Source: Bacteroidota bacterium
Lineage (GTDB): Bacteria > Bacteroidota > Bacteroidia > Flavobacteriales_D > Parvicellaceae
Reading direction: 5' to 3'
Length of the DNA: 64,000 bases
Assembly (NCBI GenBank): GCA_036123135.1
Contig: JAZADZ010000102.1
Location: 7,767-71,766, forward strand
Part shown: one piece after another, positions 12,890-64,000 of the stretch
How the letters are laid out: every line of letters begins with the position of its first letter
How positions within the stretch are numbered: position 1 is the first letter of the stretch
The notes under the pieces: generated by a model
Told to the model about the DNA's origin: nothing
Databases searched by the model: none
What the model saw: the letters and a program-made list of their open reading frames with translations, nothing else
Translations under genes and position numbers: made by a program

Positions 12890-12898
12890 AGTGAAAAA

Positions 12899-15800
12899 TC
12901 AATTGGTCTCAGAATCCCAAATGTATTCAGAAATGACAAGATTGTTTTTAAAGTAATAAGAACCCCATTTAGAAGTCACTTTCTTGTACTCGTCTCCATG
13001 ACTTCCTCTAACAACGATTCGAATAATAGTTACCTCAATCACATCTCCCCTAGTATTTTTACGCTGATACATTTTTTCAGTAATACCCTCCGGATATTCA
13101 AGAGCAAGTTGTTGTTTGTATTTTTCTGATTCGGCTTTTGGGTCAAATGCCTTGTATAAATCTAATTCACTATTGGACTGATAGTCGTTCAAAATGTCTT
13201 GTTCATATGCATTCTTTGAATTGTCAGAATTCATGTCCTGTAAAGCTTCTAATTCAGAAGATTTCATCTCTCTAGAAATATCTTTTTCCATACGTTCAGC
13301 ATAACGTTGGTTGTCTAGGGTTTCCTTAGAAGTGTACTGATTATAGGATTTATCTGCTCCAATTTCTGACCACACCGATTGAACATTAGACTCTTTATCC
13401 AAGTAACGATCCAGTTCAGGGATAACTTCCTGTCGCTGAACATCTGCATTTTGAGCAAATTCAGAGATACGATTGTCAAGGTTTTCTTTTGATTCAAAAT
13501 TTGAATAGGTCGTATTTTGACTATTTTGCTCGATTATGGATAAATCATTGGAAACAACATCTTTATAATTTTCAAGTTTAGGAATTGTTTCTTGTCTATT
13601 TTCGTCTGCCTCAGAAGAAAGAGTTGAAATGCGCTGATCTAATGCCTCCTTAGAATCATAATTTGAATATGTAACCACTTTAAATTGATCTGTAATAACC
13701 TCATTTGACATGGATAATTCGTCTTTGTAAATGTCGATTTGAGGAACAGTATTTTGCCTGATTTTATCTTTCTCCACTTCCATGGATGTTCGATTTTCAG
13801 TCATTAAGTCCATGGTTGTATTGTTGTCATAGGTCTGGTCTTTTCCAGATTGAGCTCTTATTTCATCAACAGAATACATGTTGTCTTTGTAAAACTCGGT
13901 ATTGGGAATATTATTTTGTTGTCTTATTAGATCAGCATCTTGAGAGTTCAATGCCTTTTCTGAAATCATCTGCTCGTTGGATACCGCATTGTCGTAAGCA
14001 GACTGTTTTCCATAGCTGATTCTTTGATCTAAAGCTTGTGACTCCATTTCTTTAAAGTGATCAATTTGAGGAATGTTATCCAAACGGATGTTGTCATCGC
14101 CAATTTGACTGTTTAAACGTTCATCATCAATGATATCCAATTGCTTGTAACGGTTATCAGTTTCTGCTCGTTGTTGATCAAGTTTTTGTTCGTTTGCACT
14201 GATGAGCTCATCTTTCTCATTAACCATCCTTTTTTGAAGATAATCGTTGTCATCAACCCTGTTCTTATGAATGAGCTGATCAATTTGACTTTCACTGTAC
14301 TGGCCAGTAACTTCCTCACCATACAAGACTTGGTAATTGTCTACAAAATCGGTTGGTAAGTCTTTATTGGCTGTTTTGGAGAGCTTTCTTGCTGCAATAG
14401 CGTCAAGAATATCATTAATGGCTCTAATTTTTTCTGCTGGATAAGGAGCTTCTGGACGAATACTTAAGGCATCTTGAAACTTACGAAGAGCCAATTTATA
14501 CTTTTTATTTTCAAGAGCAGCATTACCTAATTTTATGTGGGTATTGAATAATTCTGTTTTTTTCTGCTTATTTAACGCTGAGGATCTTGCATCTTCTGCT
14601 TTCAAAATTTGAGCTGGAGGATATGGATCGGTAGGCTTTATTCCACGAGCTCTCTTATACAGCTCAATGGCTTTAGCATAATTTTCTTGTGCAAACTGAT
14701 TGTCAGCAACTTCAATTATTTTTACATATTGTGTTTCGACTTCCTCATTTGCAAGCTCTCCCATTTTATTGTTTATCCAATCGATTTGTTCTTGAGGATA
14801 GCTTTCAGTGTTTTTCACATCAAATGCCTGCTTGTAATAAGATTTTGCTTTTACCCATTGTTGACTGTCTCTTGAACCATCAGCCAGTCTTATTAGATTA
14901 TCGTACTTTTCTTGTTGGGCTTTTTGATTTTGTTCGAGAAGCTTATTTTCAGCCATTTCACGGATTAATTTCTCGATTTCATTAATTCTTTGAACAGGAT
15001 ATCCATCTTCGGGATTCATTCTTTTGGCTCTTTCGTACAACTCTTTTGATTTCGCATATGATTTGGATGTAAATTGATTGTCGGCTGCATCCAAAAGTTT
15101 TTGATATTGAGCTTTAAACTCATTCTCAGTTTCTTTTTTCATCTGCTCATTGATCCAATTGATTTGATCTTGTGGATAGGTTGGTTTAGAATCGATAGCG
15201 TTGGCTTTCCTGTAAAGGTCTTTTGCAGAACTCCAGTTCTTTGCATCTCTTGCAGCATCCGCAGATGAAATAACTTGATCGTATTGAGATTTAAGGGCAT
15301 TTTCAGCTTCAATTTCGGCTAACTTTTTATCAATTTTGGACAATTGCTGTTTCGGATAATACTCATCTTGAAAGAGCTGTAATGCAGCTTCAAAGGTTAC
15401 TTTCGCTTCGCTATACTTGTTAGTTGAATATTCATTATCACCCTTTGCAATAAGTTCATCGTATTGTTTCTTTTTTTGAGCAAATTGAGCTTGCTGGTCC
15501 TTAATTTTCTTTAACTCCTGTTCAATTAAAGCAATTTGTTTCTTCGGATACTCTCTATCAAAAAATGAAATAGCTTGATTGTAAGCATCAAATGATTCCT
15601 GCCATTTTTTAGCACTAAAAAAATTATCACCCTGAGCAATGGCAGTTTTGTATTGGTTTTCAAAATCTTCATTTTGTGATATCAATCTTCGTATCTCACG
15701 AATTTTTTCTATAGGATATGCTTCAGTTGGAAAGATTTTTTTAGCTTCTTCAAATTTTTGTAATGAAACAGTATAATTTTTCTCCGAAAAAAGTTGATCG

Positions 15801-17989
15801 CCAGCATCAATAAATTGTTGATATGTATTCTGTTTTTCGAGTCTGTTGAATTCTTCGATTTTAGAATTAATTAACTCAATTTGTTTCTTTGGATACGTTT
15901 TTTCAGAAAAAATAGATAGTGCATTTTGATAATCTTCTTTGGATTTACTCCACTCTTTTGCATCTCTAAGCTGATCTGCACTCGAAATAAAAGAATCGTA
16001 CTTGGATTGTTTGTCAGCTAGATCCTGAGATTCCTTTAGTTTCTGTTTTGCACGATCAATTTTTCTTAAAACTGACTCATTTTCTGGAAAAATAGCCTTG
16101 GCCTGATTGTAATAATCAATTGACTTTTCATAATTCAATTTGGAAAACTCAGCATCACCATCAGAAATTAATTTGTTGAAATCTGCAATTTTAGCATCCT
16201 CAATTTTCTTTTGCTCTTGCTCTTTTATGATTTCTTGTTCTATTTTAGAAAGCTGCTCTTTGGGATGTGTTTCGTTAGGATAAATGGCGAGAGCACTGTT
16301 GTAAATTCTGCTTGACTCTTTCCAGTTTTTATTAGAAAAATATTCATCTGCTGAGGAAATTAATTTATCATACTGGGTTTTTCTTGCAAGTTTATCTCTT
16401 TCAATTTGAGCAATTTTCGCGTTTATCTGCTCAATTTTCTGCTGTGGATATTTTTCATTGGGCAAAATGATGAGAGATTGAGAGTAAATATCTTTAGAAT
16501 TTTCCCATTCTTCTTTATAAAAAGCATCATCTGCTTTAACAATAAGCTCATCAAATTTTCTTTTATTTTCTTCTTGTTGAATTCTATTGTCCTCAATCTC
16601 TTTGAGCTTTGCAGCAATGGCAATTAGTTGATCATTGGGGTACTGCTCATTGGATTTTATTTTAAGTGCCTGTTGGTATTCATTTTTAGCCTCATTGTAC
16701 AATGCGTCGTTGAAAAATTTATCCGCCTTTGAAATTATGCTATTGTATTGGTTGTCTAACTGTGCCAACCGTTCAGCTTCAGCTTTTAATTCTTGAGCTT
16801 TTTTAATTTGTTGCTTAGGAAGTTGCTCTAATGGTTTTATTTGAAGAGCGGCATTGTATTTAACAATAGCCTTGTCGTAATCTTTAGAAGTCAATGACTC
16901 TTCACCCTCTTTTATTAAGTTGGCGTAATTTTCTTCTGCAGATTTTTCATTTGCAACAATACCATCAATCTGAATTATCCTGTCTTTCGGATCTCGCTCG
17001 CTTGGTTTAATATCGGAGGCCTCTTGGTAAAGCTTTTTTGCTATATCCCAAGTTTTTTGATCAAATGCTTTTTTAGCCTCAGCCATTTTGGCTTGATATT
17101 TTTTATTGATTTCTGCATTGGCTAGCTCTTGCTTTTTATTTTCAGCTTCTTCAATCTTAGTGTAAGGAAGACGATCGCCAGGCTTAATCTCCTTAGCTTC
17201 GTTAAAGATGCCTATGGCCTCGTCAAATTTTTGAGACAATATTAAATTCTCACCTTTCTGAATTAATGCAAGAAATTCAGCATCTTTCTCTTTGTCCTTT
17301 TCCAATTGAGCAATTTTATCCTCAGCATCCTTAATTTTTTGTACAACAGCAGGTGAGGATTTAATCTTTAATGCTTCTTTGTATTTTAAAATAGCAATGC
17401 TGTAGTTTGTTTTGGTAAAAGCCAAATTACCCTCCTTCACCATTTTATTAAACAGCTCCTCTTGTTGTCTTGCATTTTCAGCAACAGATTTGATGTAACT
17501 TTCAATTTCTTTCTTTCGCTGATTTACATAATTAAAATCCCAGTCAAGCTTGCTGTCTGTTGGATTGATTCTTGCCTTTCCGACAGGTCTATCGGTAACT
17601 ATTGAATAATCAACATCTGATTGTTTTTTAAACAATTGAACACTCGACTCAATGTAGGATTTCTTTTCAACTTCCTCAGGATAGTACCCTTTTTTAGTAT
17701 CAAGTAATAATGTTTTTGAAACATATCCAGACTTACTGAAAGTAAGCTCATAAATGTGACCAAAATCACATTTAATTTCTTTGTATTTTCCGTTTGAAGC
17801 TGTTGTTTCAGTTTTAATGACCGAGCCATCTTGCTTAACAGAAATTTTAGCACCTTCAATTTTAATTCCAGAAACATCCGAAACTTTTCCTTCAAAAATT
17901 AGGATAGGATCATCCTGACCAAAAATTAAAACTGGCAAAAGCAGTAAAACTGCAATGATAACAGATGAACTAGTTTTATAATACATCAT
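12899..17989 (-). CDS. Giant (1696 aa) secreted repeat protein: signal peptide, CarbopepD_reg-like domain, 17 TPR-like units, 5 units of a second repeat, compact C-terminal domain
   Basis: One uninterrupted ORF. Signal peptide AVLLLLPVLIFGQ; N-terminal FEGKVSDVSGIKIEGAKISVKQDG beta-sandwich-like start. The repeat structure was read from the translation. Confidence 0.8.
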   Translation of the reverse strand: MMYYKTSSSVIIAVLLLLPVLIFGQDDPILIFEGKVSDVSGIKIEGAKISVKQDGSVIKTETTASNGKYKEIKCDFGHIYELTFSKSGYVSKTLLLDTKKGYYPEEVEKKSYIESSVQLFKKQSDVDYSIVTDRPVGKARINPTDSKLDWDFNYVNQRKKEIESYIKSVAENARQQEELFNKMVKEGNLAFTKTNYSIAILKYKEALKIKSSPAVVQKIKDAEDKIAQLEKDKEKDAEFLALIQKGENLILSQKFDEAIGIFNEAKEIKPGDRLPYTKIEEAENKKQELANAEINKKYQAKMAEAKKAFDQKTWDIAKKLYQEASDIKPSERDPKDRIIQIDGIVANEKSAEENYANLIKEGEESLTSKDYDKAIVKYNAALQIKPLEQLPKQQIKKAQELKAEAERLAQLDNQYNSIISKADKFFNDALYNEAKNEYQQALKIKSNEQYPNDQLIAIAAKLKEIEDNRIQQEENKRKFDELIVKADDAFYKEEWENSKDIYSQSLIILPNEKYPQQKIEQINAKIAQIERDKLARKTQYDKLISSADEYFSNKNWKESSRIYNSALAIYPNETHPKEQLSKIEQEIIKEQEQKKIEDAKIADFNKLISDGDAEFSKLNYEKSIDYYNQAKAIFPENESVLRKIDRAKQKLKESQDLADKQSKYDSFISSADQLRDAKEWSKSKEDYQNALSIFSEKTYPKKQIELINSKIEEFNRLEKQNTYQQFIDAGDQLFSEKNYTVSLQKFEEAKKIFPTEAYPIEKIREIRRLISQNEDFENQYKTAIAQGDNFFSAKKWQESFDAYNQAISFFDREYPKKQIALIEQELKKIKDQQAQFAQKKKQYDELIAKGDNEYSTNKYSEAKVTFEAALQLFQDEYYPKQQLSKIDKKLAEIEAENALKSQYDQVISSADAARDAKNWSSAKDLYRKANAIDSKPTYPQDQINWINEQMKKETENEFKAQYQKLLDAADNQFTSKSYAKSKELYERAKRMNPEDGYPVQRINEIEKLIREMAENKLLEQNQKAQQEKYDNLIRLADGSRDSQQWVKAKSYYKQAFDVKNTESYPQEQIDWINNKMGELANEEVETQYVKIIEVADNQFAQENYAKAIELYKRARGIKPTDPYPPAQILKAEDARSSALNKQKKTELFNTHIKLGNAALENKKYKLALRKFQDALSIRPEAPYPAEKIRAINDILDAIAARKLSKTANKDLPTDFVDNYQVLYGEEVTGQYSESQIDQLIHKNRVDDNDYLQKRMVNEKDELISANEQKLDQQRAETDNRYKQLDIIDDERLNSQIGDDNIRLDNIPQIDHFKEMESQALDQRISYGKQSAYDNAVSNEQMISEKALNSQDADLIRQQNNIPNTEFYKDNMYSVDEIRAQSGKDQTYDNNTTMDLMTENRTSMEVEKDKIRQNTVPQIDIYKDELSMSNEVITDQFKVVTYSNYDSKEALDQRISTLSSEADENRQETIPKLENYKDVVSNDLSIIEQNSQNTTYSNFESKENLDNRISEFAQNADVQRQEVIPELDRYLDKESNVQSVWSEIGADKSYNQYTSKETLDNQRYAERMEKDISREMKSSELEALQDMNSDNSKNAYEQDILNDYQSNSELDLYKAFDPKAESEKYKQQLALEYPEGITEKMYQRKNTRGDVIEVTIIRIVVRGSHGDEYKKVTSKWGSYYFKNNLVISEYIWDSETN
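13274..14089 (-). repeat. 5 tandem units of about 54 aa of a second repeat family (IRQxxIPxxxxYKD ... TYSN(Y/F)xSKExLDxRIS)
   Basis: aa 1301-1572 of the giant protein, read from the translation. Confidence 0.6.
14384..17455 (-). repeat. 17 tandem protein-level units of 55-67 aa, consensus Y-x-x-L-I-x-x-(A/G)-D-x-x-F-x-x-x-x-(Y/W)-x-x-(A/S)-x-x-x-Y-x-x-A-x-x-I-x-P-x-E-x-YP-x-x-Q-I-x-x-I
   Basis: I delimited the units by hand as aa 179-1202. Units 13+14 resemble units 15+16 pairwise, suggesting a two-unit super-repeat duplication. Confidence 0.7.
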
Positions 17990-32895: not shown

Positions 32896-32979
32896 CGGAG
32901 AGACTGGGACTCGAACCCAGGCAACGATTGCTCGTTGACAGCTTAGCAGGCTGTTGCATTACCACTCTGCCACCTCTCC
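32896..32979 (-). tRNA. tRNA-Ser (anticodon GCT)
   Basis: Hand-folded cloverleaf. Acceptor GGAGAGG/TCTCTCC, anticodon stem ACAGC/GCTGT with loop CTGCTAA, long variable arm CAACGAGCAATCGTTGC, T-arm CTGGG-TTCGAGT-CCCAG, discriminator G. No CCA is encoded. Confidence 0.9.
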
Positions 32980-55389: not shown

Positions 55390-55749
55390 CTATTTCACAT
55401 AATCTTGCTTTCTTACAAGGGCATAATTTTCATTTTCCAATTGAAGATAACCAAGCTCATAGACAAAATAATAGGTTTTTCCTTGTTTGGTTCTGTAAAT
55501 GTTGGTGTAATAATAGAAATTAAAACCGCTCAAAAGTAGTTGTTCTTTTGTGGTTTTTGCTTTTTCTCCTAGCATAAGGTTAGATAAAATTCTTCTGTTT
55601 TTTCTAAGCACAACGTTCACTTTTCGAACATAATCGTTGGCAACCTTATTTAAGTTGTTGTTGTATGTATTTCTACATTGATCGTTGCAGAACTTTTTAT
55701 CTGATCTGCCCATTAATTTAGAATCGCATTCCAAACAGAGTTTTTCCAT
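55390..55749 (-). CDS. Hypothetical protein with N-terminal zinc-ribbon (CLECDSKLMGRSDKKFCNDQC)
   Basis: 119-aa ORF, divergent from the recombinase gene. Four Cys are arranged CxxC...CxxxC. Confidence 0.45.
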   Translation of the reverse strand: MEKLCLECDSKLMGRSDKKFCNDQCRNTYNNNLNKVANDYVRKVNVVLRKNRRILSNLMLGEKAKTTKEQLLLSGFNFYYYTNIYRTKQGKTYYFVYELGYLQLENENYALVRKQDYVK

Positions 55750-55878: not shown

Positions 55879-56712
55879 ATGAAACAGATCCCAAAAATAC
55901 AGCAACGGTTAATCATTAAAAGATACAGTCCATCAACAGTACGCACCTACCTTACTTGCTTGAAAAACTTCTTCGCACATTTTAAGAACCACAATACTGA
56001 AACGCTTTCCAAAGAAGAACTTCTTAACTATTTGGAACACTTAGTTCAAAAAGGGTATTCAAAGAGCACTCAAAATCAACACATTAATGCCATCAAATTT
56101 TATTATGAAAAATATTTAGAAAAAGAAAAGCAGTATTACTTTATTGATCGTCCAATAAAGGACAAAAGACTTCCAGTGGTGATGAGCAAAGAAGAAGTTC
56201 AACAGCTTTTAAATCAAGTCCACAATCTTAAACACAAAACTATTTTAATCCTCATCTATTCTTGTGGGCTAAGAATATCTGAATTGATTAATTTAAAAAT
56301 TGAAGACATCGACTCGAAAAGAATGTTAATTCAAATTCGAAATTCAAAAGGCAACAAAGACAGACAAGTTCAGCTTACCAACCAAATTCTTGTGTTAATT
56401 AAAAAGTACTACAAATCTTACTTTCCAAAAGAGTTTCTTTTTAACGGAATGCATGGAGGAAAATATTCTTCGGCTAGCATTCAAAAGATCATTAAGCGAA
56501 TGGCTCAAAGGTCAGGTATTCGAAAAAACATAACGCCACATACCTTACGACACAGCTTCGCAACTCACCTTCTTGAAGATGGTATTGACATTAGATACAT
56601 TCAAACCATTCTTGGCCACAGTAATATTCAAACTACACAGATTTACACCCACGTGTCCAGTAAACATCTTATAAACATCAAAAACCCTACTGATGACATG
56701 AATATTTTTTAA
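55879..56712 (+). CDS. Tyrosine recombinase, integron-integrase-like but compact (277 aa)
   Basis: SAM-like N-terminus (YSPSTVRTYLTCLKNFFAHF), RLPVVMSKEEV, catalytic R (CGLRISEL), HTLRHSFATHLLEDGIDIRYIQTILGHSNIQTTQIYTHV (H-x-x-R, H, Y). These blocks resemble IntI1/VchIntIA as I remember them. Only about 56 aa separate KDR from TPHTLRH. Confidence 0.8.
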   Translation: MKQIPKIQQRLIIKRYSPSTVRTYLTCLKNFFAHFKNHNTETLSKEELLNYLEHLVQKGYSKSTQNQHINAIKFYYEKYLEKEKQYYFIDRPIKDKRLPVVMSKEEVQQLLNQVHNLKHKTILILIYSCGLRISELINLKIEDIDSKRMLIQIRNSKGNKDRQVQLTNQILVLIKKYYKSYFPKEFLFNGMHGGKYSSASIQKIIKRMAQRSGIRKNITPHTLRHSFATHLLEDGIDIRYIQTILGHSNIQTTQIYTHVSSKHLINIKNPTDDMNIF

Positions 56713-56720
56713 CTTCATAC

Positions 56721-56761
56721 ATAACAAGAATAAACGTAATACGTTTATCCTATCGTTACCG
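56721..56761 (+). repeat. First recombination site (attI position), hairpin-type: ATAAC ... ataaacgt/acgtttat ... GTTACCG
   Basis: Starts 8 nt after the recombinase stop. Its GTTACCG (56755-56761) is the exact reverse complement of CGGTAAC at 57433-57439. Confidence 0.6.
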
Positions 56762-56775
56762 TACATAATTATAAA

Positions 56776-57426
56776 ATGAAAAAGACGACCTTAATATTAA
56801 TAACAATCTGTTTCGGAATTTTCATTTCATGTAATTCAAAAGATTCCAACTCTAAGACAAATTACAACAGTCAAGAAAAGTTTGAATTTCAAAATGGAGA
56901 TGTAATTTTTCAGACCTCCCAATCTAGACAAAGTAAAGCAATTCAGCTTGCTACAAACTCAAAGTATAGTCATGTTGGTATTATTTACAATAATTCAAAT
57001 AAACTATATGTTTTTGAAGCTGTTCAACCTGTTAAAATCACACCATTAGAAAGCTGGATTAAAAGAGGAAAAAATAAGCATTATGTTGTCAAAAGATTGA
57101 TTAATTCAAATGATGTTCTAGATTCAAAAACAATTTCAAAAATGAAACAAGCAGGAGAAAAATATCTAAATAAAAATTATGATATCTACTTCGAATGGAC
57201 TGATGATAAAATCTACTGCTCTGAATTAGTTTGGAAGATATATAAAGAAGCTGCAAACATTGAAATTGGTGAATTAGAAAAATTATCTGATTTTGATCTT
57301 ACAAACAATATTGTTAGAGAAATATTAAAAGAAAGATATGGCAATAATATTCCAATGGATGAAGTTGTAATTTCTCCTGAATCTATTTATAACTCAGATT
57401 TATTGGAAACAATTTATGAAAACTAA
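56776..57426 (+). CDS. Cassette 1: YiiX-family permuted papain-like (C92) lipoprotein
   Basis: Lipobox (FISC). GDVIFQTSQSRQSKAIQLATNSKYSHVGII and KIYCSELVWKIYKEA blocks typical of YiiX/YaeF. Confidence 0.7.
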   Translation: MKKTTLILITICFGIFISCNSKDSNSKTNYNSQEKFEFQNGDVIFQTSQSRQSKAIQLATNSKYSHVGIIYNNSNKLYVFEAVQPVKITPLESWIKRGKNKHYVVKRLINSNDVLDSKTISKMKQAGEKYLNKNYDIYFEWTDDKIYCSELVWKIYKEAANIEIGELEKLSDFDLTNNIVREILKERYGNNIPMDEVVISPESIYNSDLLETIYEN

Positions 57427-57432
57427 AACGCA

Positions 57433-57484
57433 CGGTAACAGTGTGTAAATTGCATAATAACGCAATTTACACGTTCCGTTGTAG
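57433..57484 (+). repeat. attC-type site B: CGGTAAC - 11-bp perfect stem (gtgtaaattgc / gcaatttacac) - GTTGTAG
   Basis: Read directly. Its left box complements site A's GTTACCG. Its GTTGTAG complements CTACAAC of site C. Confidence 0.75.
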
Positions 57485-57503
57485 AGCATTTAAAATAAAT
57501 AAA

Positions 57504-59627
57504 TTGAAAAAAATAATAATAATATTTTTTCTGACTTTAATATGTGATAATTATACAGCGCAATCAAATTATGACAGTCTTTGGAATGTATGGAATAACG
57601 TTGAAGAACCTGACTCAAATAGAATTAAATCATTATACACAATTGTAAAAGAAGTTTATTTAAATACAAATATAGATAGTGCACTTATATTAGCTAAAAA
57701 AGTCAATGGTCTTGCTCTATCTTCAAAAGTGAATCTTCACATATCAAAATCATATATTTTATTAGGTGCTATATATTTTAGAAGTAAAGATTATTCCCAA
57801 GCTATTACAAGTTATAATCAAGCTTTAGTATACGCTAAAAAAAGTAATTCTTTTGAAGAAATAATAGTATCATATACAGGTTTAGGAATAGGCTATAAAT
57901 CGATAGGAGACTTTAATAATGCATTTATTTATTTAGAAAAATCATTAGAAAAGTCAAACACTTATAAAAACTACAACAAAAATAGCATACTAAATAGTTT
58001 AGGTAACCTATTCTCCGAGCAAGAAAAATACCAAGATGGGCTAAAATATTATAAGGAAGCTTTTGATTATGCTTCAGATGAAGACAAAATAACAATTTAT
58101 TATAATATAGGAGCATGTTACATTGAACTAGAAGAGACACAAAAAGCTATAAAACAACTTAACAACGCTTTAATTCTAGCAAAACGTTTTGATGATTTAA
58201 TTTCTCAAATTTACTGTCACAGTGCTTTAAGTTCAGCATATTTAGATACTAAAGAATATACTAAAGCAAAAATAAATCTAGAATTAGAAAGCAATTTAGT
58301 TTCTAACCTTCAAAATGATTTTTATAATGCCATATTATATTTTGATTACGGAAATTATTTTTTAAGTAAGCAAGAAAATAAATCAGCTATTAATTATTTC
58401 AAAAAAGCATTTTTACTTTTTGAAAAACATGAAAGTTTTTCTGACTTATTAGCCATTTCTGAAAATTTATATGAAGCTTACGAAAAAACAAACGATTTAA
58501 GAAATGCATTAAAATATTATAAACTATTTGTTAATTATCAGAACAAAATAATCAATGATGAAATAAAAGAAAAATCTATATCCCAATTAACTAAGCATGA
58601 AATTGAAAAGAAACAACTGATAAAAGACCAAAAACAAAAAGAAGCTGCCAAGATTGCAAGAATCGAACAATTAAAAAAAGATGCTATTGCAAAAAAAGAA
58701 TCTGAAAACAAAAACTTTTTACTAATTACTAGCCTAGTAATTATAATTTTGGTAATAATATTTACCATAATTTTAATTAGCCGTTTAAGAATCACTACTA
58801 AACAAAAAGGCATTATAGAAAAGCAGAAGAAAAAGGTAGATAATGCATACAGTCAGCTTGAAGAAAAGAATCTTGAGATTCTAGACTCAATACAATATGC
58901 CAAAAGGTTACAACAAGCTATTCTTCCACCTAAAAAACTTGTAAAAGAGTGGTTGCCCAACTCATTTGTTCTATACAAACCTAAAGATATTGTAGCAGGA
59001 GACTTTTACTGGATGGAAAATATTAATGAATGGATATATTTTGCAGCAGCAGATTGCACAGGACATGGTGTACCAGGGGCTATGGTATCGGTAGTGTGTT
59101 CAAACGCACTTAGTGTCGCCTTACTTGATGAAGGTAAAACAAAACCATCAGAGATTCTCAACAGAACAAGAGAGTTAGTTATAGAACGTTTTGAAAGGTC
59201 TGAAGAAGAGATCAAAGACGGTATGGATATTTCTCTTTGTGCTCTAAATTACAAAACAGGTAAGATGCAATGGGCGGGTGCAAACAATCCTCTCTGGATA
59301 ATACGTAGTGGATCTGACGTAATAGAGGTTATTCGTGGAGATCAACAACCTATCGGCATTTATGTAACAAGTGATCCATTTCACAACCATGAAATAAAGC
59401 TTCAAAAAGGAGATTGTATCTATATTTTCACTGATGGCTATCCTGATCAATTTGGAGGAGAAAAGAACAAAAAGTATAAAACCACCACACTTAAACGATT
59501 TTTACTTACTATTCAAGATAAAGATATGGAAACTCAACGCAAGCTGCTAAGCAAAGAATTTGATAATTGGAAAGCAGACTTTGAGCAAGTTGATGATGTA
59601 TGTGTGATTGGGGTTAAAACAGTGTAA
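57504..59627 (+). CDS. Cassette 2: TPR-repeat / TM / PP2C-SpoIIE phosphatase (paralogue of 30772-32826)
   Basis: TTG at 57504 gives MKKIIIIFFLTLICDNYTAQ; the track start 57441 lies inside attC site B. TPR units, TM helix (LLITSLVIIILVIIFTIILI), YAKRLQQAILPP...AGDFYWM...DCTGHGVPGAMVS...TDGYPDQFGG...DDVCVIGVK. Confidence 0.8.
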   Translation: MKKIIIIFFLTLICDNYTAQSNYDSLWNVWNNVEEPDSNRIKSLYTIVKEVYLNTNIDSALILAKKVNGLALSSKVNLHISKSYILLGAIYFRSKDYSQAITSYNQALVYAKKSNSFEEIIVSYTGLGIGYKSIGDFNNAFIYLEKSLEKSNTYKNYNKNSILNSLGNLFSEQEKYQDGLKYYKEAFDYASDEDKITIYYNIGACYIELEETQKAIKQLNNALILAKRFDDLISQIYCHSALSSAYLDTKEYTKAKINLELESNLVSNLQNDFYNAILYFDYGNYFLSKQENKSAINYFKKAFLLFEKHESFSDLLAISENLYEAYEKTNDLRNALKYYKLFVNYQNKIINDEIKEKSISQLTKHEIEKKQLIKDQKQKEAAKIARIEQLKKDAIAKKESENKNFLLITSLVIIILVIIFTIILISRLRITTKQKGIIEKQKKKVDNAYSQLEEKNLEILDSIQYAKRLQQAILPPKKLVKEWLPNSFVLYKPKDIVAGDFYWMENINEWIYFAAADCTGHGVPGAMVSVVCSNALSVALLDEGKTKPSEILNRTRELVIERFERSEEEIKDGMDISLCALNYKTGKMQWAGANNPLWIIRSGSDVIEVIRGDQQPIGIYVTSDPFHNHEIKLQKGDCIYIFTDGYPDQFGGEKNKKYKTTTLKRFLLTIQDKDMETQRKLLSKEFDNWKADFEQVDDVCVIGVKTV

Positions 59628-59638
59628 TGTTAAACGCC

Positions 59639-59693
59639 CTACAACACAGTCTAAACCAAATTACTTAACTTGGTTTAGCCAGACCGTTAGTAG
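59639..59693 (+). repeat. attC-type site C: CTACAAC-acagtctaaacc...ggtttagcc-agacc-GTTAGTAG
   Basis: Read directly. Imperfect hairpin with a 3-4 nt bulge (gcc) on the 3' arm. Confidence 0.8.
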
Positions 59694-59713
59694 TAATTTA
59701 AATAACTTTAATT

Positions 59714-60406
59714 ATGAAAAAATTATCCTCAATTATATATATATGTCTAATATTAAGTAGCTATGGACAAAGTAAAAAGGAATTACACGCATCAATTGAA
59801 AGAATGAAAAATGATTCAATATCCATGACTAAAATAATTTCTCAACATGAATCAAGTATAACTCAACACAAATCAACCATAATTAAAAAAGATGAAATTA
59901 TATCAAAACTTAATATTGAAGCTAATTCCATTAAAAAGAAATTAGATGATCTAATTATCTTGAATCAAAATTTAGAAGAAAAAATAAACGATTTTAATAT
60001 TAAATTAATCAACACGAACGATTCATTAAAATATTTAAATGAAATTTTAAAGTCAAATAGTGAATCTATAAACACTAAAGACCTTATGAAATGGAGAATT
60101 ACCTATTTCGAAGGTGTAGTAGATTATTATGATTCATATGATGGTTTAGATGCTTTATATGTTAATCTAAAAAACGGAAACAAAATAACTTTTTACACAT
60201 CAGCTGGTGATGGATTAGAATGGGTAGAAATAAAAGATAAAAATCCCCCATATACATATAATTTAAATGGCTGTTATTTTGAAGGCGGCTGCAGAATTAG
60301 AGGGTACTATGGTAAAGGTTACTATGGTGGGTATGGATCACCATCTGGAAGTGGCGGCATATCTCCAGGAATTGTAAATAGAATTGTTTACGTTGAAAAT
60401 TATTGA
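59714..60406 (+). CDS. Cassette 3: secreted hypothetical protein (signal peptide, about 100-aa coiled-coil-like region, Gly/Tyr-rich C-terminal domain)
   Basis: MKKLSSIIYICLILSSYGQSKK..., heptad-like low-complexity stretch, C-terminus YYGKGYYGGYGSPSGSGG. Confidence 0.5.
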   Translation: MKKLSSIIYICLILSSYGQSKKELHASIERMKNDSISMTKIISQHESSITQHKSTIIKKDEIISKLNIEANSIKKKLDDLIILNQNLEEKINDFNIKLINTNDSLKYLNEILKSNSESINTKDLMKWRITYFEGVVDYYDSYDGLDALYVNLKNGNKITFYTSAGDGLEWVEIKDKNPPYTYNLNGCYFEGGCRIRGYYGKGYYGGYGSPSGSGGISPGIVNRIVYVENY

Positions 60407-60413
60407 CCCAACA

Positions 60414-60468
60414 CTACTAACACAGTCTAAACTAAATTGTATAAAATAGTTTAGCCGCAACGTTATGG
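60414..60468 (+). repeat. attC-type site D: CTACTAAC-acagtctaaact...agtttagcc-gcaac-GTTATGG
   Basis: Read directly. Its arms are nearly identical to those of site C. Confidence 0.8.
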
Positions 60469-60493
60469 TTAATTGTTGTAAAAAATAATAAAT

Positions 60494-61618
60494 ATGAAAA
60501 AACAGAATAATATATTTTTATTGATTCTTTTTATCGCTCTTTTTTCAAGTTGCAACAATGAAGAAAATAATAAAATAATAGAAGAACCCGTAGATGAACA
60601 ATCAAAAATAAATAGAGACCCGGACGATAGAAAGGATTTTGCAAATGTTTACTGGAAAAAACAATACACTTTATTTGATCTAATAACTGATGAACCAATT
60701 TTCCCTGTGAATGTAAATGGGACTCTCATTTATAAAATCTATTATTCAAGCAACGAAGATCCAAACCCATACTACAAAGAGTTTACAGCTGAACAATTAG
60801 AAAATCACCTATTCTATAAATTTAAAAACAAAGAAAATTGTATGATTTTCTGTAATAGAAAAAAGCAAAACGAAAATGGAAAAAAGCCAGATCCTAACAT
60901 AACTTATTCTTTAAAGGAAGCATTGGCAAATGATTTTATTAAAATATCAGCAGATGGTAATGGTACTTACCGTAATATTAAATTAAATTTAGAAAACAAA
61001 TCAGACGCTAGTTGTAAGCTTACACTTCCCGCCGGTTTGTATTTTGAAAACCCAGATGACAAATCACAAAGTCTTATAACCGCAAAAAAAATAGATATAA
61101 TAACGATAGATGACAAACAAAAGTTCAGCCTAGATGTACCTTCATTTTGTACCAATGTAAAGCAAAGTGTGCCCGGATTATTAAAAGATTGGAATCATAA
61201 TCCAAATTATAATGGTGGATTAGATGAGGTTATCGCTTTTTATGGTAAATATGAAAAGGGTATCAACAAATGGTTAGAGAAAAAAAATAAAGAATTTTCA
61301 GATGAAAATAAACGGATGCTATTTTTTCAAACAGTTATTTGGTATCATGAAGGTGCTCAATATCAAGAAATACTAGAAATGTTGAAAAATGATGTTTTCA
61401 AAAATGATATTGAAAAAGCTAAAGTATGGTTAGACAATATTCAGCAAGAAGCTTCTCAATTAGCGCAATTGATTAAAGAACGAGATTCAGAAAAAATTAA
61501 AACCTGGCTTAAAGAAAAAACTTTAGAATTAATCCCAACGTCTGAACAAGTCGATGAAGCAGTTGACAAAGGGAAGAAAACGCTTGATAAGTTTCGAAAC
61601 AGACTAAAGGGGAGATAA
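60494..61618 (+). CDS. Cassette 4: hypothetical lipoprotein (374 aa)
   Basis: Lipobox (LFSSC). No family recognised. Confidence 0.5.
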   Translation: MKKQNNIFLLILFIALFSSCNNEENNKIIEEPVDEQSKINRDPDDRKDFANVYWKKQYTLFDLITDEPIFPVNVNGTLIYKIYYSSNEDPNPYYKEFTAEQLENHLFYKFKNKENCMIFCNRKKQNENGKKPDPNITYSLKEALANDFIKISADGNGTYRNIKLNLENKSDASCKLTLPAGLYFENPDDKSQSLITAKKIDIITIDDKQKFSLDVPSFCTNVKQSVPGLLKDWNHNPNYNGGLDEVIAFYGKYEKGINKWLEKKNKEFSDENKRMLFFQTVIWYHEGAQYQEILEMLKNDVFKNDIEKAKVWLDNIQQEASQLAQLIKERDSEKIKTWLKEKTLELIPTSEQVDEAVDKGKKTLDKFRNRLKGR

Positions 61619-61626
61619 AAACCAGC

Positions 61627-61680
61627 CCATAACAAAAGTTAAACTGCATTAAAACGCAGCTTAGCCAAAACGTTAAAGGC
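61627..61680 (+). repeat. attC-type site E: CCATAAC-aaaagttaaact-gcattaaaacgc-agcttagcc-aaaac-GTTAAAGGC
   Basis: Read directly. Shares the TAAAC / TTAGCC arm cores with sites C and D. Confidence 0.75.
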
Positions 61681-61705
61681 AATTAAAAAGTAGAACGTTT
61701 TAAAT

Positions 61706-62344
61706 ATGAGTAATGAACGACCAACATTCAAAGAATGGGTTGCTGAGAATCCCAGAAAAAGTATCAATGACTATTACAAAATATATGGTACTGAATTTTC
61801 AGATTCAACTGCAAAAGTAAAGACAAAACCAACCCAACAGAGTTATTCAAATGATTTTAATAGTTATTCAGTTGATAGTAAAATGGCTTTCAATTCTTTA
61901 CAGATTATTTGTATGATTTTCTCTGGCATTATGACTGCATCTTATTTTTTACCTTGGCTTGAATATAATGTTATGGGCCAAAATCTTGTTAGTGTTACAG
62001 GTTTTGAAGTGCCAAAGATGATTCAAGATATTGAACAATTTAAAAACATGTTCCGTACTGATAAAACATATAATTCTCCAAATATATTTTATGTGTTGCA
62101 TTTGTTTCCAATTTGTGGTGTAGGAATATTAATTTCAGTTATTTCAAAAACAAATGTTTTCCGTTTTCTTGGAGAGTTAACAATTATCATAATTATGTGT
62201 TGGTTTATACATAAACTAGTGGCACTTCAAACAAATTCAGTTATAAAAATGTCGATATTAGATTTCGCTGGTCTTGGACTGTTTTTTTCTGTCATTTGTT
62301 CAATATATTTTCTTTTTGATTTATTGAAATTAATTACAAAATGA
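61706..62344 (+). CDS. Cassette 5: hypothetical membrane protein (about 4 TM helices)
   Basis: 212-aa ORF with a soluble N-terminal segment of about 60 aa, then hydrophobic helices. Confidence 0.5.
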   Translation: MSNERPTFKEWVAENPRKSINDYYKIYGTEFSDSTAKVKTKPTQQSYSNDFNSYSVDSKMAFNSLQIICMIFSGIMTASYFLPWLEYNVMGQNLVSVTGFEVPKMIQDIEQFKNMFRTDKTYNSPNIFYVLHLFPICGVGILISVISKTNVFRFLGELTIIIIMCWFIHKLVALQTNSVIKMSILDFAGLGLFFSVICSIYFLFDLLKLITK

Positions 62345-62347
62345 ACA

Positions 62348-62458
62348 GCCTACAACAACAAACAAGCGACATTTTTTTTATAATTGAATAGGTTCCGCTG
62401 AGGCTTCACCGGAATAATAAGGTAAAAAAACGCGTGCCTGTTTGCAGGCCGTTAACTT
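62348..62458 (+). repeat. attC-type site F (long, 111 nt): GCCTACAAC ... two internal short hairpins ... GTTAACTT
   Basis: Boxes read directly. Internal stems ttccg/cggaa and gcctg/caggc. The global arm pairing is less obvious than in sites B-E. Confidence 0.55.
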
Positions 62459-62464
62459 AATTAA

Positions 62465-63403
62465 ATGAAAATAAGTTCGATGAAAAAAACAGTTTTATGC
62501 ACTGCAATGGTTTTTTTAATATTCATTGCAAATGCTCAAAGTAAAAAGCAACAAATTGAAAGCCTCACTATTTCAATTGATAGCTTGAACCAATTAATTA
62601 CTAATGAACGTAATAATTTTAATTTTACAATAGATAGCTTAAATAAGCTTCTTAGGTACAGTCAACAAAATTTTGATTTAAAGATTACGAATTCTAATGA
62701 TAAAATTAAAAATCTGATTATAGAACAAAATAAATTAAATTCTATAAATGATTCGATTAATCGTGAGCTTAATATTATAAAAAAAGAAAAACTAATATTA
62801 AATCAAAAATTTTCTATTCTTAGCAAAAATGTTGATTCACTAAAGCAACAAATATTAGAATTTAACAAAAATACATCAATAAACTCATTTCGTAATTCTA
62901 TTAAATTTGAGAACTTTTTATTTTATTTCTTATCTACAGTTTACTCTGAAAAAAATATAGATAGCTTAATTTATGTTTCTTCTCCAATGATTTTGGACTT
63001 GATTGATAATAACATTGGCTTTGGACGGTTTTGGAATATGGGTGCTACTTGTAATTTATTCAATTCCGATGGATTTGGCTATAATTTTTATGAAGATTAC
63101 TTTGGTAAAACAGAGCCCAAAATATTAAATTATGCTTTTTTCAAAAATCAAAAACCAGAAGGTGGACTCTGTGAAGAAGCATCTACTTCAAATGGAATTT
63201 ATTACAGCCAGATCAATAAACTTCCAGAAGATTGGGATATGGAAAAAGATGAATCAATTCCTTCACCACAAAAGTTAAATTATTTAAAAAAATTTATAGT
63301 TCAAATTCAATACGATTCTTGGATAGTAAAAACTTTTTATTTTGTTGAATCAAACAATAAATGGTTTTTACTTTACATTTATGATTGCGATTGCAGTTCC
63401 TAA
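62465..63403 (+). CDS. Cassette 6 ORF a: secreted hypothetical protein (signal peptide, coiled-coil-like N-terminal region, Cys-containing C-terminal domain)
   Basis: ...FIANAQSKKQQIESL... Its architecture parallels the cassette 3 protein. Confidence 0.5.
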   Translation: MKISSMKKTVLCTAMVFLIFIANAQSKKQQIESLTISIDSLNQLITNERNNFNFTIDSLNKLLRYSQQNFDLKITNSNDKIKNLIIEQNKLNSINDSINRELNIIKKEKLILNQKFSILSKNVDSLKQQILEFNKNTSINSFRNSIKFENFLFYFLSTVYSEKNIDSLIYVSSPMILDLIDNNIGFGRFWNMGATCNLFNSDGFGYNFYEDYFGKTEPKILNYAFFKNQKPEGGLCEEASTSNGIYYSQINKLPEDWDMEKDESIPSPQKLNYLKKFIVQIQYDSWIVKTFYFVESNNKWFLLYIYDCDCSS

Positions 63404-63467
63404 AAGGAACAAACGCTCATTATAAATAAATTGAATTAAAACGTAATTTACTTCAAAATATTTAATA

Positions 63468-63995
63468 ATGAATGTATTAGATAAAATGAAAAAAGTAATG
63501 CCAATTATCGGAGTAATCCTTTTTGCTTCATTAATTCTATCAAACTGTGATTCAAACTCAGAAACCAAAGTTGTTGATACTTCTAATTCAATAAATACAT
63601 CTAAAAAATCTACAATCCCTGAACTTTCAAAAGAATTTTTAGGAAATTATCATGGTATTCAGCCCAGTTATTTTATGAAGAACCAATATGGTGACGATAT
63701 GGTAATTGCTGGAAACAAGGTTCCTGTTCCATCAAGTGATTTTAAATTTTTATTGAAAGAAAATAATGTTGTTAGTTTACAACAAACAAATTCAGAGGAT
63801 AACAGCAGATATTATTATAACGGAAATTACAAAATTTTAAGTGATGATTCAGGTTTCATTAAAACTGAGTGTTCACTGAGCGATGGACAAGGATCTTCAC
63901 CTACTTATATTTTAGAAATAAGTAAAACTGATAAAATAGGAAAGTGTATTGGCAAAACAAATGAACCTGAATTTCAAATTTCAAAAATTAAATAA
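63468..63995 (+). CDS. Cassette 6 ORF b (or a separate cassette): hypothetical lipoprotein (175 aa)
   Basis: Lipobox (ILSNC). No family recognised. Confidence 0.5.
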   Translation: MNVLDKMKKVMPIIGVILFASLILSNCDSNSETKVVDTSNSINTSKKSTIPELSKEFLGNYHGIQPSYFMKNQYGDDMVIAGNKVPVPSSDFKFLLKENNVVSLQQTNSEDNSRYYYNGNYKILSDDSGFIKTECSLSDGQGSSPTYILEISKTDKIGKCIGKTNEPEFQISKIK

Positions 63996-64000
63996 AACCG

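What the first reader, a model, noticed from the sequence alone, without database searches (positions are those of the whole stretch)
55879..64000. Integron-type gene-cassette array with cassette-specific junction complementarity
Each ORF after the recombinase gene is followed, 3-11 nt after its stop, by an imperfect palindromic site. The ORF starts are 56776, 57504, 59714, 60494, 61706 and 62465. Each site begins with a box ending in AAC and ends with a box beginning GTT. The sites are 57433-57484, 59639-59693, 60414-60468, 61627-61680 and 62348-62458, plus a first site at 56721-56761. The bases after G|TT in one site are the reverse complement of the AAC box of the next site, not of its own box. 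The pairs are GTTACCG (56755) vs CGGTAAC (57433); GTTGTAG (57478) vs CTACAAC (59639); GTTAGTAG (59686) vs CTACTAAC (60414); GTTATGG (60462) vs CCATAAC (61627); and GTTAAAGGC (61672) vs GCCTACAAC (62348, 7/9). This is the classic boundary structure of integron cassettes: a circular cassette is inserted by crossover between G and TT, so TTRRRY belongs to the following cassette and pairs with that cassette's own R''. Four exact matches at variable positions are very unlikely by chance. Only 6-25 nt separate each GTT box from the next start codon and I see no TAnnTTTG box there, so the units look promoterless. The inferred cassettes are 56756-57478 (723 bp), 57479-59686 (2208 bp), 59687-60462 (776 bp), 60463-61672 (1210 bp), 61673-62451 (779 bp) and 62452 to beyond 64000.
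Basis: partly seen in the sequence, partly recalled or inferred. Interest (0 to 1): 0.92.

Follow-up and report, generated by a model that had tools for sequence, protein, structure and literature searches.

The report
Integron-like cassette array, non-IntI recombinase
This marine Flavobacteriales chromosome carries a gene-cassette array that behaves like an integron, but the recombinase next to it lacks the extra domain that is thought to define, and be required by, every integron integrase.

Summary
Five ORFs downstream of the recombinase gene (55879-56712) are each followed by an imperfect palindrome of the form xxxxAAC...GTTxxxx. In 4 of 5 successive pairs, the bases after G|TT are the exact reverse complement of the next site's AAC box (0 of 6 for a site's own box; chance about 1e-8).

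Related metagenome and genome contigs show that these units are mobile cassettes. Five contigs of the same species share the recombinase and first site, then diverge exactly after GTT into five different first cassettes. Window cassette 1 recurs at 98.4% identity as cassette 6 in a genome whose core DNA is only 68-75% identical, with breakpoints at CGTT. In a sister lineage, identical cassettes sit at different array positions behind an identical recombinase.

The recombinase is not a canonical IntI. It is XerA-like, fails the integron-integrase model, and lacks the roughly 46-residue IntI-specific domain. A Zn-ribbon gene is its only conserved neighbour in six of the distant Bacteroidota loci. 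The same architecture occurs in other Bacteroidota and on a Chryseobacterium plasmid.

Verdict: a real integron-like platform and a new variant of a known kind. I found no description of it in the literature searched.

The parts
55390..55749 (-). 119-aa Zn-ribbon protein (CxxC...FCxxxC; some relatives are named 'DUF2116 family'). It is divergent from the recombinase and is a candidate accessory or regulatory partner.
   Evidence: In six distant loci (L008, L009, L010, L014, L015, L029; 30-45% identity) it is the only window neighbour that stays next to the recombinase, and it is always divergent upstream. aroQ, Maf, UbiA, SiaC and MamF do not stay. No Pfam family matches.
55879..56712 (+). 277-aa tyrosine recombinase, XerA-like and without the IntI-specific domain. 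It is the putative cassette integrase.
   Evidence: NF040815 scores 243.5 bits (cut-off 220). TIGR02249 scores 226 bits, below its 265 cut-off, and matches in two pieces. The protein is colinear with XerA 4a8e. Against VchIntIA 2a3v, residues about 197-242 of IntI have no counterpart. The AF2 model has only a 16-residue loop at that position. Catalytic residues R132, K160, H221, R224, H247 and Y256 are invariant in 13 relatives.
56730..56757 (+). Primary insertion site, equivalent to attI: palindrome ATAAACGTA-A-TACGTTTAT (56730-56748), spacer CCTATC, then G|TT (56755-56757). The crossover lies between G56755 and T56756.
   Evidence: The site is conserved in lineages whose recombinases are 60-99% identical. 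Sequence diverges immediately after GTT in five same-species contigs and in nine contigs of a sister lineage. The same architecture (GATAAACGCAATTGCGTTTATC + CAATT + GTT) is seen in a Flavobacteriaceae isolate at 49% identity.
56756..57478 (+). Cassette 1 (723 bp): YiiX/C92 permuted papain-like enzyme (ORF 56776-57426) plus the attC-like site 57433-57484.
   Evidence: NF007458 284.8 bits and PF05708. It is 98.4% identical over 731 nt to cassette 6 of L102/L103, with identity starting at CGTT and ending at CCGTT, while the core DNA is only 68-75% identical. The site scores 59.4 bits with model R1.
57479..59686 (+). Cassette 2 (2208 bp): TPR plus SpoIIE/PP2C phosphatase membrane protein (ORF 57504-59627) plus attC-like site 59639-59693.
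   Evidence: Pfam TPR and SpoIIE. GTTGTAG at 57478 pairs with CTACAAC at 59639. R1 scores 61.1 bits.
59687..60462 (+). Cassette 3 (776 bp): 230-aa secreted protein or lipoprotein of unknown function (59714-60406) plus attC-like site 60414-60468.
   Evidence: GTTAGTAGT pairs with ACTACTAAC over 9 nt. R1 scores 56.1 bits.
60463..61672 (+). Cassette 4 (1210 bp): 374-aa lipoprotein-like protein of unknown function (60494-61618) plus attC-like site 61627-61680.
   Evidence: GTTATGG pairs with CCATAAC. R1 scores 60.6 bits.
61673..62451 (+). Cassette 5 (779 bp): 212-aa membrane protein (61706-62344) plus a long (111-nt) attC-like site 62348-62458.
   Evidence: The R box matches only 7/9 (GTTAAAGGC against GCCTACAAC). 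The bottom strand folds at -21.9 kcal/mol. The narrow model R1 does not detect this site. It is the weakest unit.
62452..64000 (+). Cassette 6, incomplete at the window end: ORFs 62465-63403 and 63468-63995, with a decayed attC remnant (L box only) at 63427-63450.
   Evidence: R1 gives a partial hit of 18.2 bits covering model positions 14-37 only. No AAC box complementary to GTTAACTT occurs before position 64000.

Best explanation
This is a sedentary chromosomal gene-cassette platform that works like an integron. It sits in a marine Flavobacteriales (Crocinitomicaceae-type) genome.

Proposed mechanism: a XerA-like tyrosine recombinase inserts and excises circular cassettes by a crossover between G and TT. 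One partner is the primary site just after the recombinase stop codon. That site is a palindrome, then 6 nt, then G|TT. The other partner is the cassette's own attC-like hairpin: a 7-10 bp R box, an asymmetric internal loop, a 9-14 bp L stem and a small loop. Cassettes pile up in one orientation, co-directional with the recombinase.

What is shown:
- the site anatomy;
- the crossover position, to within CGTT;
- cassette mobility within and between species;
- the conserved adjacency of recombinase, first site and array;
- the absence of the IntI-specific domain.

What is inferred:
- that the adjacent recombinase is the enzyme;
- that the attC-like site reacts as a folded single (bottom) strand, with one strand exchange resolved by replication, as in integrons and in CTX-phage/XerCD integration. 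I infer this because recombining partners share only (C)GTT, with no 6-8 bp common overlap region;
- that the conserved Zn-ribbon neighbour is an accessory factor;
- that cassettes are transcribed by read-through from the recombinase side.
For: Anatomy:
- The sites and the next-site complementarity are as described.
- All 27 covariance-model hits in 216 kb lie on the recombinase strand and downstream of the recombinase.
- The L stem covaries: 94.9% of cells are paired against 78% in shuffles, and 42 cells carry double changes against 10.
- Reconstructed circular sites fold into hairpins, with the bottom strand more stable in 24 of 25.

Mobility:
- Five different first cassettes follow an identical first site in same-species contigs.
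- Window cassette 1 recurs at 98.4% identity as cassette 6 in a genome with a 78%-identical recombinase and 68-75%-identical core DNA. The breakpoints are at CGTT and CCGTT.
- Behind one identical recombinase protein (P0100), ten contigs carry at least eight different gene sets.
- A 1127-bp cassette is at position 1 in L096 and position 5 in L090 (1126/1127 identical). A 1621-bp cassette is at position 2 in L089 and position 4 in L090 (1621/1621 identical). The flanks are unrelated in both cases.
- Chains of 4-7 cassettes show 7-10 nt exact R-box complementarity.

Recombinase:
- It is XerA-like, lacks the IntI domain and keeps its catalytic residues.

Generality:
- A first-cassette link starts within 400 nt after the stop codon in Flavobacteriaceae, Aquiflexum, Alkalitalea, Lewinella and other Bacteroidota loci.
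- A Chryseobacterium plasmid carries the same architecture.
Against: - There is no direct evidence that this recombinase, rather than another enzyme in the genome, catalyses the reaction.
- The IntI-specific domain is reported to be essential for attC recombination (Messier & Roy 2001, as cited in PMC9668308; PMC8138268).
- Cury et al. [quoted passage not shown]
- The L stems show no single-base extrahelical bulges, which are a hallmark of canonical attC sites.
- The fifth junction matches only 7/9, and cassette 6 is unresolved.
- Most comparative contigs are metagenome assemblies. However, isolates (L008, L010, L017) and a complete plasmid (L106) show the same architecture.
- Strand choice and single-strand exchange are inferred, not shown.
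Confidence: 0.8

Rival explanations
1. The array is a CALIN: a classical integron array whose canonical IntI is encoded elsewhere or has been lost. On this reading the adjacent Xer-like gene is an unrelated neighbour.
For: Cury et al. 2016 found 50 domain-less recombinases next to attC sites and judged them not to be IntI. Only 64 kb of this genome can be seen, so a canonical intI elsewhere cannot be excluded.
Against: The array always begins 20-110 nt after this gene's stop codon, at a conserved site. This holds in lineages from 99% down to about 45% recombinase identity, in different synteny contexts and on a plasmid. All variation starts exactly at that site. The IntegronFinder 2.0 survey reports almost no IntI in Bacteroidetes.
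Confidence: 0.07
2. The recombinase is the housekeeping single Xer (XerA-type) of these bacteria and the palindrome after its gene is a dif-like site, as in xerS/difSL. The cassettes would then be elements that exploit Xer (IMEX-like) and accumulate at dif.
For: The protein passes the XerA equivalog model. The gene sits at a conserved chromosomal position in Crocinitomicaceae. The first site contains a perfect palindrome that looks like two inverted arms. XerCD integration of folded single-stranded CTX-phage DNA is a known precedent (general knowledge).
Against: The crossover maps 6-7 nt outside the palindrome, not in its centre. Cassettes carry long hairpin sites in direct orientation and shuffle between positions, which is integron behaviour. 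The same module is on a plasmid with an array. In distant genomes the flanking synteny is not conserved apart from the Zn-ribbon gene. This rival partly overlaps the main explanation, since both could be true.
Confidence: 0.1
3. The hairpins are ordinary intergenic terminators or REP/MITE-like repeats within a fixed block of genes.
For: The simple scan calls three of the sites terminator-like on the minus strand. The sites lie just after stop codons.
Against: Terminators and REPs do not explain the next-site complementarity, which is specific to successive sites. They do not explain restriction to one strand and to the region downstream of the recombinase. They do not explain cassette-level presence/absence and reordering with breakpoints at G|TT.
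Confidence: 0.01

Closest known systems
Sedentary chromosomal integrons (e.g. the Vibrio superintegron) and integrons in general
   Same: - One-directional array of mostly single-ORF cassettes without leader promoter boxes.
- Each cassette ends in an imperfect palindrome xxxxAAC...GTTxxxx.
- The crossover is at G|TT, so each cassette's 5' TTxxxx pairs with its own R''.
- A primary site lies beside the recombinase gene.
- Related attC sequences occur within a lineage.
- The chromosomal position is fixed while cassette content varies between strains.
- Accessory cargo in related arrays includes a DarT-domain protein, a methylase plus HpaII-type restriction enzyme, beta-lactamase-fold proteins and regulators.
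   Different: - The integrase lacks the IntI-specific domain and fails TIGR02249.
- The first site contains a perfect 9-1-9 palindrome.
- The L stems have no single-base extrahelical bulges. The asymmetry is an internal loop instead.
- The L-box motif (CTAAAC/GTTTAG) is not an inverted copy of the R box.
- Some cassettes are multi-gene, up to 3.8 kb.
- A Zn-ribbon gene is a conserved partner.
- The host phylum, Bacteroidota, was reported to be almost devoid of integrons.
Integrons with the integrase co-directional with the cassettes (typical Spirochaetota integrons) and archaeal integrons
   Same: The recombinase gene has the same orientation as the cassettes, and the primary site lies immediately downstream of the gene (PMC9668308).
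   Different: Those integrases are reported to carry the IntI-specific domain. This one does not.
XerA/dif and other single-recombinase Xer systems (XerS/difSL, XerH/difH); CTX-phage integration by XerCD
   Same: XerA is the closest sequence and fold match. A recombination site lies next to the recombinase gene, as in xerS/difSL. A Xer enzyme without any IntI domain can recombine a folded single-stranded hairpin by one strand exchange, as in CTX phage (general knowledge).
   Different: No dif-type 11-6-11 site contains the crossover. Here there are tandem cassette arrays with cassette-specific hairpin sites, and the cassettes shuffle.
pdif modules of Acinetobacter plasmids
   Same: Small gene modules are bounded by sites for Xer-family recombinases.
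   Different: pdif sites are 28-bp XerC/D sites in alternating inverted orientation. Here the sites are 50-130-nt hairpins, all in direct orientation.

Membership tests
Integron (IntegronFinder / Messier & Roy definition) | The integrase carries the IntI-specific additional domain near patch III (intI_Cterm; TIGR02249 above its cut-off). | tested here: not met
   TIGR02249 scores 226 bits, below its 265 cut-off, and the match is split. Six relatives score 192-218 bits, all below 265, and the best matched stretch stops at profile position about 177-197 in five of them. Residues about 197-242 of VchIntIA have no counterpart. The AF2 model has only a 16-residue loop there.
Integron | attC sites: imperfect palindromes R''-L''...L'-R' with conserved AAC and GTT that can fold as hairpins. 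| tested here: met
   covariation; folds.
Integron | The crossover is at G|TT, so the R'' of a cassette is complementary to that cassette's own 5' end, which follows the previous site's G. | tested here: met
   In the window, 4 of 5 links are exact. Twenty-three cassettes in relatives have 7-10 nt R boxes. Comparative breakpoints fall at CGTT.
Integron | A primary site (attI) beside the integrase gene, where cassettes are inserted. | tested here: met
   A conserved site lies after the stop codon. Five first cassettes in the window species, and at least seven in the P0100 lineage, diverge right after its GTT.
Integron | Cassettes are independently mobile: the same cassette appears at different positions or in different hosts. 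| tested here: met
Integron | Extrahelical bases in the folded L box, which set strand choice and are bound by the IntI domain. | tested here: inconclusive
   The predicted bottom-strand folds show uninterrupted L stems and an asymmetric internal loop rather than single-base bulges. This is a prediction only.
Integron | The sites are detected by the IntegronFinder attC covariance model. | not testable with these tools
   That model is not in Rfam (no hit) and is not available here.
Integron | Promoterless cassettes expressed from a common promoter on the integrase side. | tested here: inconclusive
   No plus-strand TAnnTTTG lies in any cassette leader, but window-wide the motif occurs at chance frequency. 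The sigma-70-type scan is at chance level.
Integron | Recombination of a folded single bottom strand, with replicative resolution. | not testable with these tools
   Inferred only, from the lack of any shared overlap region beyond (C)GTT between partners.
XerA-type Xer/dif dimer resolution | The protein passes the XerA equivalog model. | tested here: met
   NF040815 scores 243.5 bits against a 220 cut-off. Five full-length relatives score 221-243 bits; the truncated L105 copy scores 190.
XerA-type Xer/dif dimer resolution | The crossover lies inside a dif core: two inverted arms separated by a 6-8 bp central region. | tested here: not met
   The junctions lie 6-7 nt to the right of the palindrome.
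XerA-type Xer/dif dimer resolution | A single site at the replication terminus, and no other Xer in the genome. | not testable with these tools
   Only 64 kb is visible, and the local GC skew follows gene orientation.
pdif modules | Modules are flanked by 28-bp XerC/D sites in inverted orientation. | tested here: not met
   All sites are in direct orientation and 50-130 nt long.

The most novel reading that the evidence does not exclude
Bacteroidota harbour a second, widespread lineage of integrons. Its integrase is a XerA-like recombinase that never acquired, or has lost, the IntI-specific domain, and it works together with a Zn-ribbon partner. That would mean hairpin-site cassette recombination does not require the domain now used to define integrons. 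It would also give a living intermediate between Xer/dif systems and integrons. As an extension, the unexplained 'xerD' or 'delta-tnpF' genes next to tet(X), catB, aadS and bla genes in Flavobacteriaceae, and on Acinetobacter tet(X3) plasmids, could be remnants of such platforms.
Probability: 0.45. Interest if true: 0.92.

Novelty: new variant of a known kind. Interest (0 to 1): 0.82.

Why it matters
Integron detection and theory both rest on the IntI-specific domain:
- IntegronFinder requires it.
- Cury et al. 2016 concluded that recombinases lacking it near attC sites are not integron integrases.
- Bacteroidetes were reported to be nearly free of integrons.

A phylum-wide family of working cassette platforms with a domain-less, XerA-like integrase would have three consequences.

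1. A large reservoir of mobile cassettes in marine and environmental Bacteroidota is invisible to current surveys.
2. The origin of integrons from Xer recombinases becomes experimentally testable. One can ask what the extra domain actually adds, and whether the Zn-ribbon protein substitutes for it.
3. It offers a concrete, testable mechanism for the repeated and so far unexplained linkage of 'xerD' with tet(X), catB, aadS and bla genes in Flavobacteriaceae.

Tried and rejected
- **Rfam scan of the window.** It found only a tRNA and has no attC family.
- **Genome-contig scan with the recombinase alignment.** Close relatives had to be fetched by exact-protein look-ups instead.
- **Model R1.** It is too lineage-specific for the 130-nt sites of other genera, so I wrote a hairpin plus chain-complementarity scan. 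With relaxed settings that scan is noisy. Only links of at least 8-9 nt that start just after the recombinase gene were used. A naive 8-mer walk failed on L106, so its junctions were checked by pattern.
- **L083 (Prolixibacteraceae).** It first looked like a divergent arrangement. Its recombinase is in fact part of a different two-gene element inserted into attC-like sites, so it was dropped as evidence.
- **GC skew as a test for a terminus or dif location.** It is uninformative at this scale.
- **The tet(X3) plasmid context.** It has an attI-like site, but the hairpin after tet(X3) is not complementary to the left end. It is therefore not a clean cassette, and I keep it only as a lead.
- **Scans for the attI sequence.** The metagenome scan for the exact attI gave one contig. 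The two viral-contig hits to the palindrome are chance matches with no recombinase.
- **Literature.** Seven searches found no description of this system.

Full report
**1. Observation**

The region 55879-64000 contains a 277-aa recombinase gene (55879-56712, plus strand). Six plus-strand ORFs follow it. Each of the first five ORFs is followed, 3-11 nt after its stop codon, by an imperfect palindrome. The palindrome starts with xxxxAAC and ends with GTTxxxx. The coordinates are 57433-57484, 59639-59693, 60414-60468, 61627-61680 and 62348-62458. A first site lies at 56721-56761.

The bases after GTT in one site are the exact reverse complement of the AAC box of the next site in 4 of 5 cases. Three of these extend further, to 8 nt (GTTACCGT/ACGGTAAC) and 9 nt (GTTAGTAGT/ACTACTAAC). 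The fifth is 7/9. For the 4-nt variable part, 4 of 5 successive pairs match, against 0 of 6 own-site pairs and 1 of 31 non-successive pairs. The composition-based probability of at least 4 of 5 is about 1.3e-8.

A covariance model built from ten such sites (A2, R1) was run with filters off. In the 64-kb window it finds only these sites, plus the first site weakly (18 bits) and a partial remnant at 63427-63450.

**2. What the sites are**

Across the window and close relatives, 27 model hits in 216 kb all lie on the recombinase strand and downstream of the recombinase gene.

Their inner stem covaries. 94.9% of cells are paired, against 78% in shuffles and 9-40% when the partner is slid. Forty-two cells carry changes on both sides, against 10 expected.

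I rebuilt the site as it would exist in a circular cassette, joining each cassette's own 5' TTxxxx to its 3' G. The rebuilt site folds into a hairpin with four parts:
- a 7-10 bp R box;
- an asymmetric internal loop, longer on the R'-L' side;
- a 9-14 bp L stem;
- a small loop.

The bottom strand is the more stable in 24 of 25 sites, with a mean of -15.4 against -13.2 kcal/mol. Unlike canonical attC sites, the predicted L stems have no single-base bulges.

**3. The units are mobile cassettes**

*Same species.* Four metagenome contigs have recombinases 96-99% identical to the window's. Those four (L001, L098, L099, L107) and the window share the first site to the base. They then diverge immediately after GTT into five different sequences: ACCG..., GTAAAA..., AGCAAT..., GTGCCT... 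and GTAGAA.... The L098 cassette ends in a site whose R'' (TGCTAAC) matches its own left end.

*Between species.* Window cassette 1 is the 723-bp YiiX-like C92 enzyme cassette. It is 98.4% identical over 731 nt to cassette 6 of L102/L103. The recombinase there is only 78% identical in protein, and the neighbouring core DNA is only 68-75% identical. Identity begins at CGTT and ends at CCGTT.

*Sister lineage.* One identical recombinase protein (P0100, 60% identical to the window's) is found on many contigs with identical upstream synteny. Ten such contigs carry at least eight different downstream gene sets. All diverge right after the GTT of the conserved first site.
- A 1127-bp beta-lactamase-fold cassette is first in L096 and fifth in L090 (1126/1127 identical).
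- A 1621-bp three-ORF cassette is second in L089 and fourth in L090 (1621/1621 identical).
- The flanks are unrelated in both cases.

*Chains.* Walking from the first site by R-box complementarity recovers 4, 6 and 7 consecutive cassettes in L089, L090 and L102. Each link has 7-10 nt of exact match. In L002/L005 (84%-identical recombinase) two cassettes are shared. The contigs then diverge at ...AGAAACGTT|.

**4. The recombinase**

It is a complete tyrosine recombinase (PF13495 plus PF00589). R132, K160, H221, R224, H247 and Y256 are invariant in 13 relatives.

- Its best curated model is NF040815, a XerA-type model that NCBI names 'site-specific tyrosine recombinase/integron integrase'. The score is 243.5 bits against a cut-off of 220.
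- The integron-integrase model TIGR02249 scores 226 bits, below its 265 cut-off, and matches in two pieces.
- Against solved structures, the protein is colinear with Pyrococcus XerA (4a8e, E = 5e-50).
- Against the Vibrio integron integrase (2a3v) the alignment breaks. Query 11-195 matches IntI 13-196, and query 197-270 matches IntI 243-316. About 46 IntI residues, the IntI-specific domain, have no counterpart.
- An AlphaFold model (pLDDT 81.5) has only a 16-residue loop at that position. Its best structural matches are XerA and then IntI.
- Six relatives behave the same way. These include the ones next to arrays in a Flavobacteriaceae isolate, in Winogradskyella and on a Chryseobacterium plasmid.

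**5. The first site and a conserved partner**

The first site is a perfect palindrome ATAAACGTA-A-TACGTTTAT, followed by 6 nt and then G|TT. It is conserved from 99% down to 60% recombinase identity. A Flavobacteriaceae isolate at 49% identity has the same design: GATAAACGCAATTGCGTTTATC + CAATT + GTT. Its upstream AAC box is not conserved, so it plays the role of attI rather than being a full attC.

The 119-aa Zn-ribbon gene upstream (55390-55749, minus strand) has a special status. In six distant genomes it is the only window neighbour that remains next to the recombinase, and it is always divergent. I infer that it is a partner of the recombinase. Its function is unknown.

**6. Generality**

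Eight distant loci show a first-cassette link that starts within 400 nt of the recombinase stop codon. Six of these links span at least 9 nt. The eight are:
- a Flavobacteriaceae isolate;
- Aquiflexum;
- Alkalitalea;
- Lewinella;
- three Bacteroidota MAGs;
- one MAG labelled Spirochaetota.

Their sites are often about 130 nt long.

A complete Chryseobacterium plasmid carries the recombinase followed by a chained array. The array includes a repeated ORF-less cassette, an IS110 element and a group II intron.

**7. Mechanism**

The following points are shown:
- the crossover is at G|TT, to a resolution of CGTT;
- all units are in direct orientation;
- the units move as discrete entities.

The rest is inferred. 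Recombining partners share only (C)GTT and have no common 6-8 bp overlap region. A classical two-strand exchange is therefore unlikely. The integron route fits best: a folded single strand, one strand exchange, and resolution by replication. XerCD integration of folded CTX-phage DNA shows that a Xer enzyme without the IntI domain can do this (general knowledge).

That the adjacent recombinase is the enzyme rests on conserved adjacency, not on an experiment. Expression by read-through is suggested by the absence of TAnnTTTG boxes in the cassette leaders. That evidence is weak, because the motif occurs at chance frequency in the window.

**8. Comparison with what is known**

The array meets the integron criteria for attC structure, G|TT boundaries, a primary site and cassette mobility. 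It fails the criterion that currently defines the integrase.

- Cury et al. 2016 examined domain-less recombinases near attC sites and concluded that they are not IntI.
- IntegronFinder 2.0 reports only In0 elements and a single complete integron (Salinibacter) in Bacteroidetes.
- Archaeal integron integrases are reported to have the domain.
- Smyshlyaev et al. 2021 note that the insertion is 'not fully conserved' in their integron-like subgroup but is essential for function.
- Seven literature searches found no description of this system.
- Papers on tet(X), catB and aadS in Flavobacteriaceae repeatedly note an adjacent 'xerD' of unknown role.
- A truncated homologue 54% identical to the window's recombinase sits beside tet(X3) on many Acinetobacter plasmids. 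An attI-like site lies between the two genes. That unit is not a clean cassette.

**9. Verdict**

The system is best described as an integron-like platform with a XerA-like integrase that lacks the IntI domain, which makes it a new variant of a known kind.

The main uncertainties are:
- the identity of the enzyme;
- the strand used in recombination;
- whether the recombinase also serves as a housekeeping Xer.

Noticed in passing
L105 (NZ_CP041297.1, Acinetobacter indicus p80-1-2-tetX3) 5022-7200: A truncated homologue (54% identity, residues 50-276) of the window's recombinase lies just upstream of tet(X3) on many Acinetobacter plasmids. Between the two genes is an attI-like site: TATACGCCA-TT-TGGCGTATA + GCCACTT + GTT. 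The hairpin after tet(X3) is not complementary to the left end, so this is not a clean cassette. Published papers note 'xerD' next to tet(X), catB and aadS without giving a mechanism.
   Followed up: partly
L106 (NZ_CP041688.1, Chryseobacterium sp. SNU WT5 plasmid) 7749-16800: A plasmid-borne copy of the system. The array contains an ORF-less cassette of about 170 nt in four copies (GTTGGGAAAAATCG...CGATTTTTCCCAAC). It also holds an IS110 element and a group II intron reverse transcriptase on the opposite strand. Group II introns are also reported in association with classical integron arrays (PMC7923331, abstract).
   Followed up: partly
L083 (Prolixibacteraceae MAG) 2572-4649 and 9926-12003: Two copies of a two-gene element: a 301-aa tyrosine recombinase plus an overlapping 391-aa ORF. 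The copy at 9926-12003 starts about 80 nt downstream of ...GCTGATGTT|GAACTAA in a 130-nt attC-like site, and the same junction sequence precedes the other copy. The element appears to target such sites.
   Followed up: partly
window 55390-55749 (-): A 119-aa Zn-ribbon protein (CxxC...FCxxxC) with no Pfam hit. It is conserved next to the recombinase in distant Bacteroidota even where all other synteny is lost.
   Followed up: partly
L008 9665-10792 and L010 9668-10798; L106 7749-8792: In Flavobacteriaceae and Weeksellaceae the recombinase ORF is 347-376 aa. It has an N-terminal extension of about 70-100 aa with no Pfam match, which the window's 277-aa protein lacks.
   Followed up: no
window 56000-64000 compared with 1-54000: The cassette region has 28-30% G+C, against 33-35% in the core part of the window.
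   Followed up: no
L002 12673-15966; L101 17556-19900; L093 10925-14722: Cargo in related arrays includes an 888-aa DarT-domain protein with a second ORF in the same cassette, and a DNA methylase plus HpaII-type restriction enzyme pair. There is also a 3.8-kb multi-gene cassette (FUR, DUF6660, TonB-dependent receptor). Its left end (GTTCTCGGCAAGC) also follows the recombinase in a Saprospiraceae MAG (L014).
   Followed up: no
window 63427-63450: An L-box-only remnant of an attC-like site lies between the last two ORFs. It suggests that two former cassettes fused after the site decayed.
   Followed up: no
window 32896-32979 (-): A tRNA gene. It is the only Rfam hit in the window and is unrelated to the finding.
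   Followed up: no
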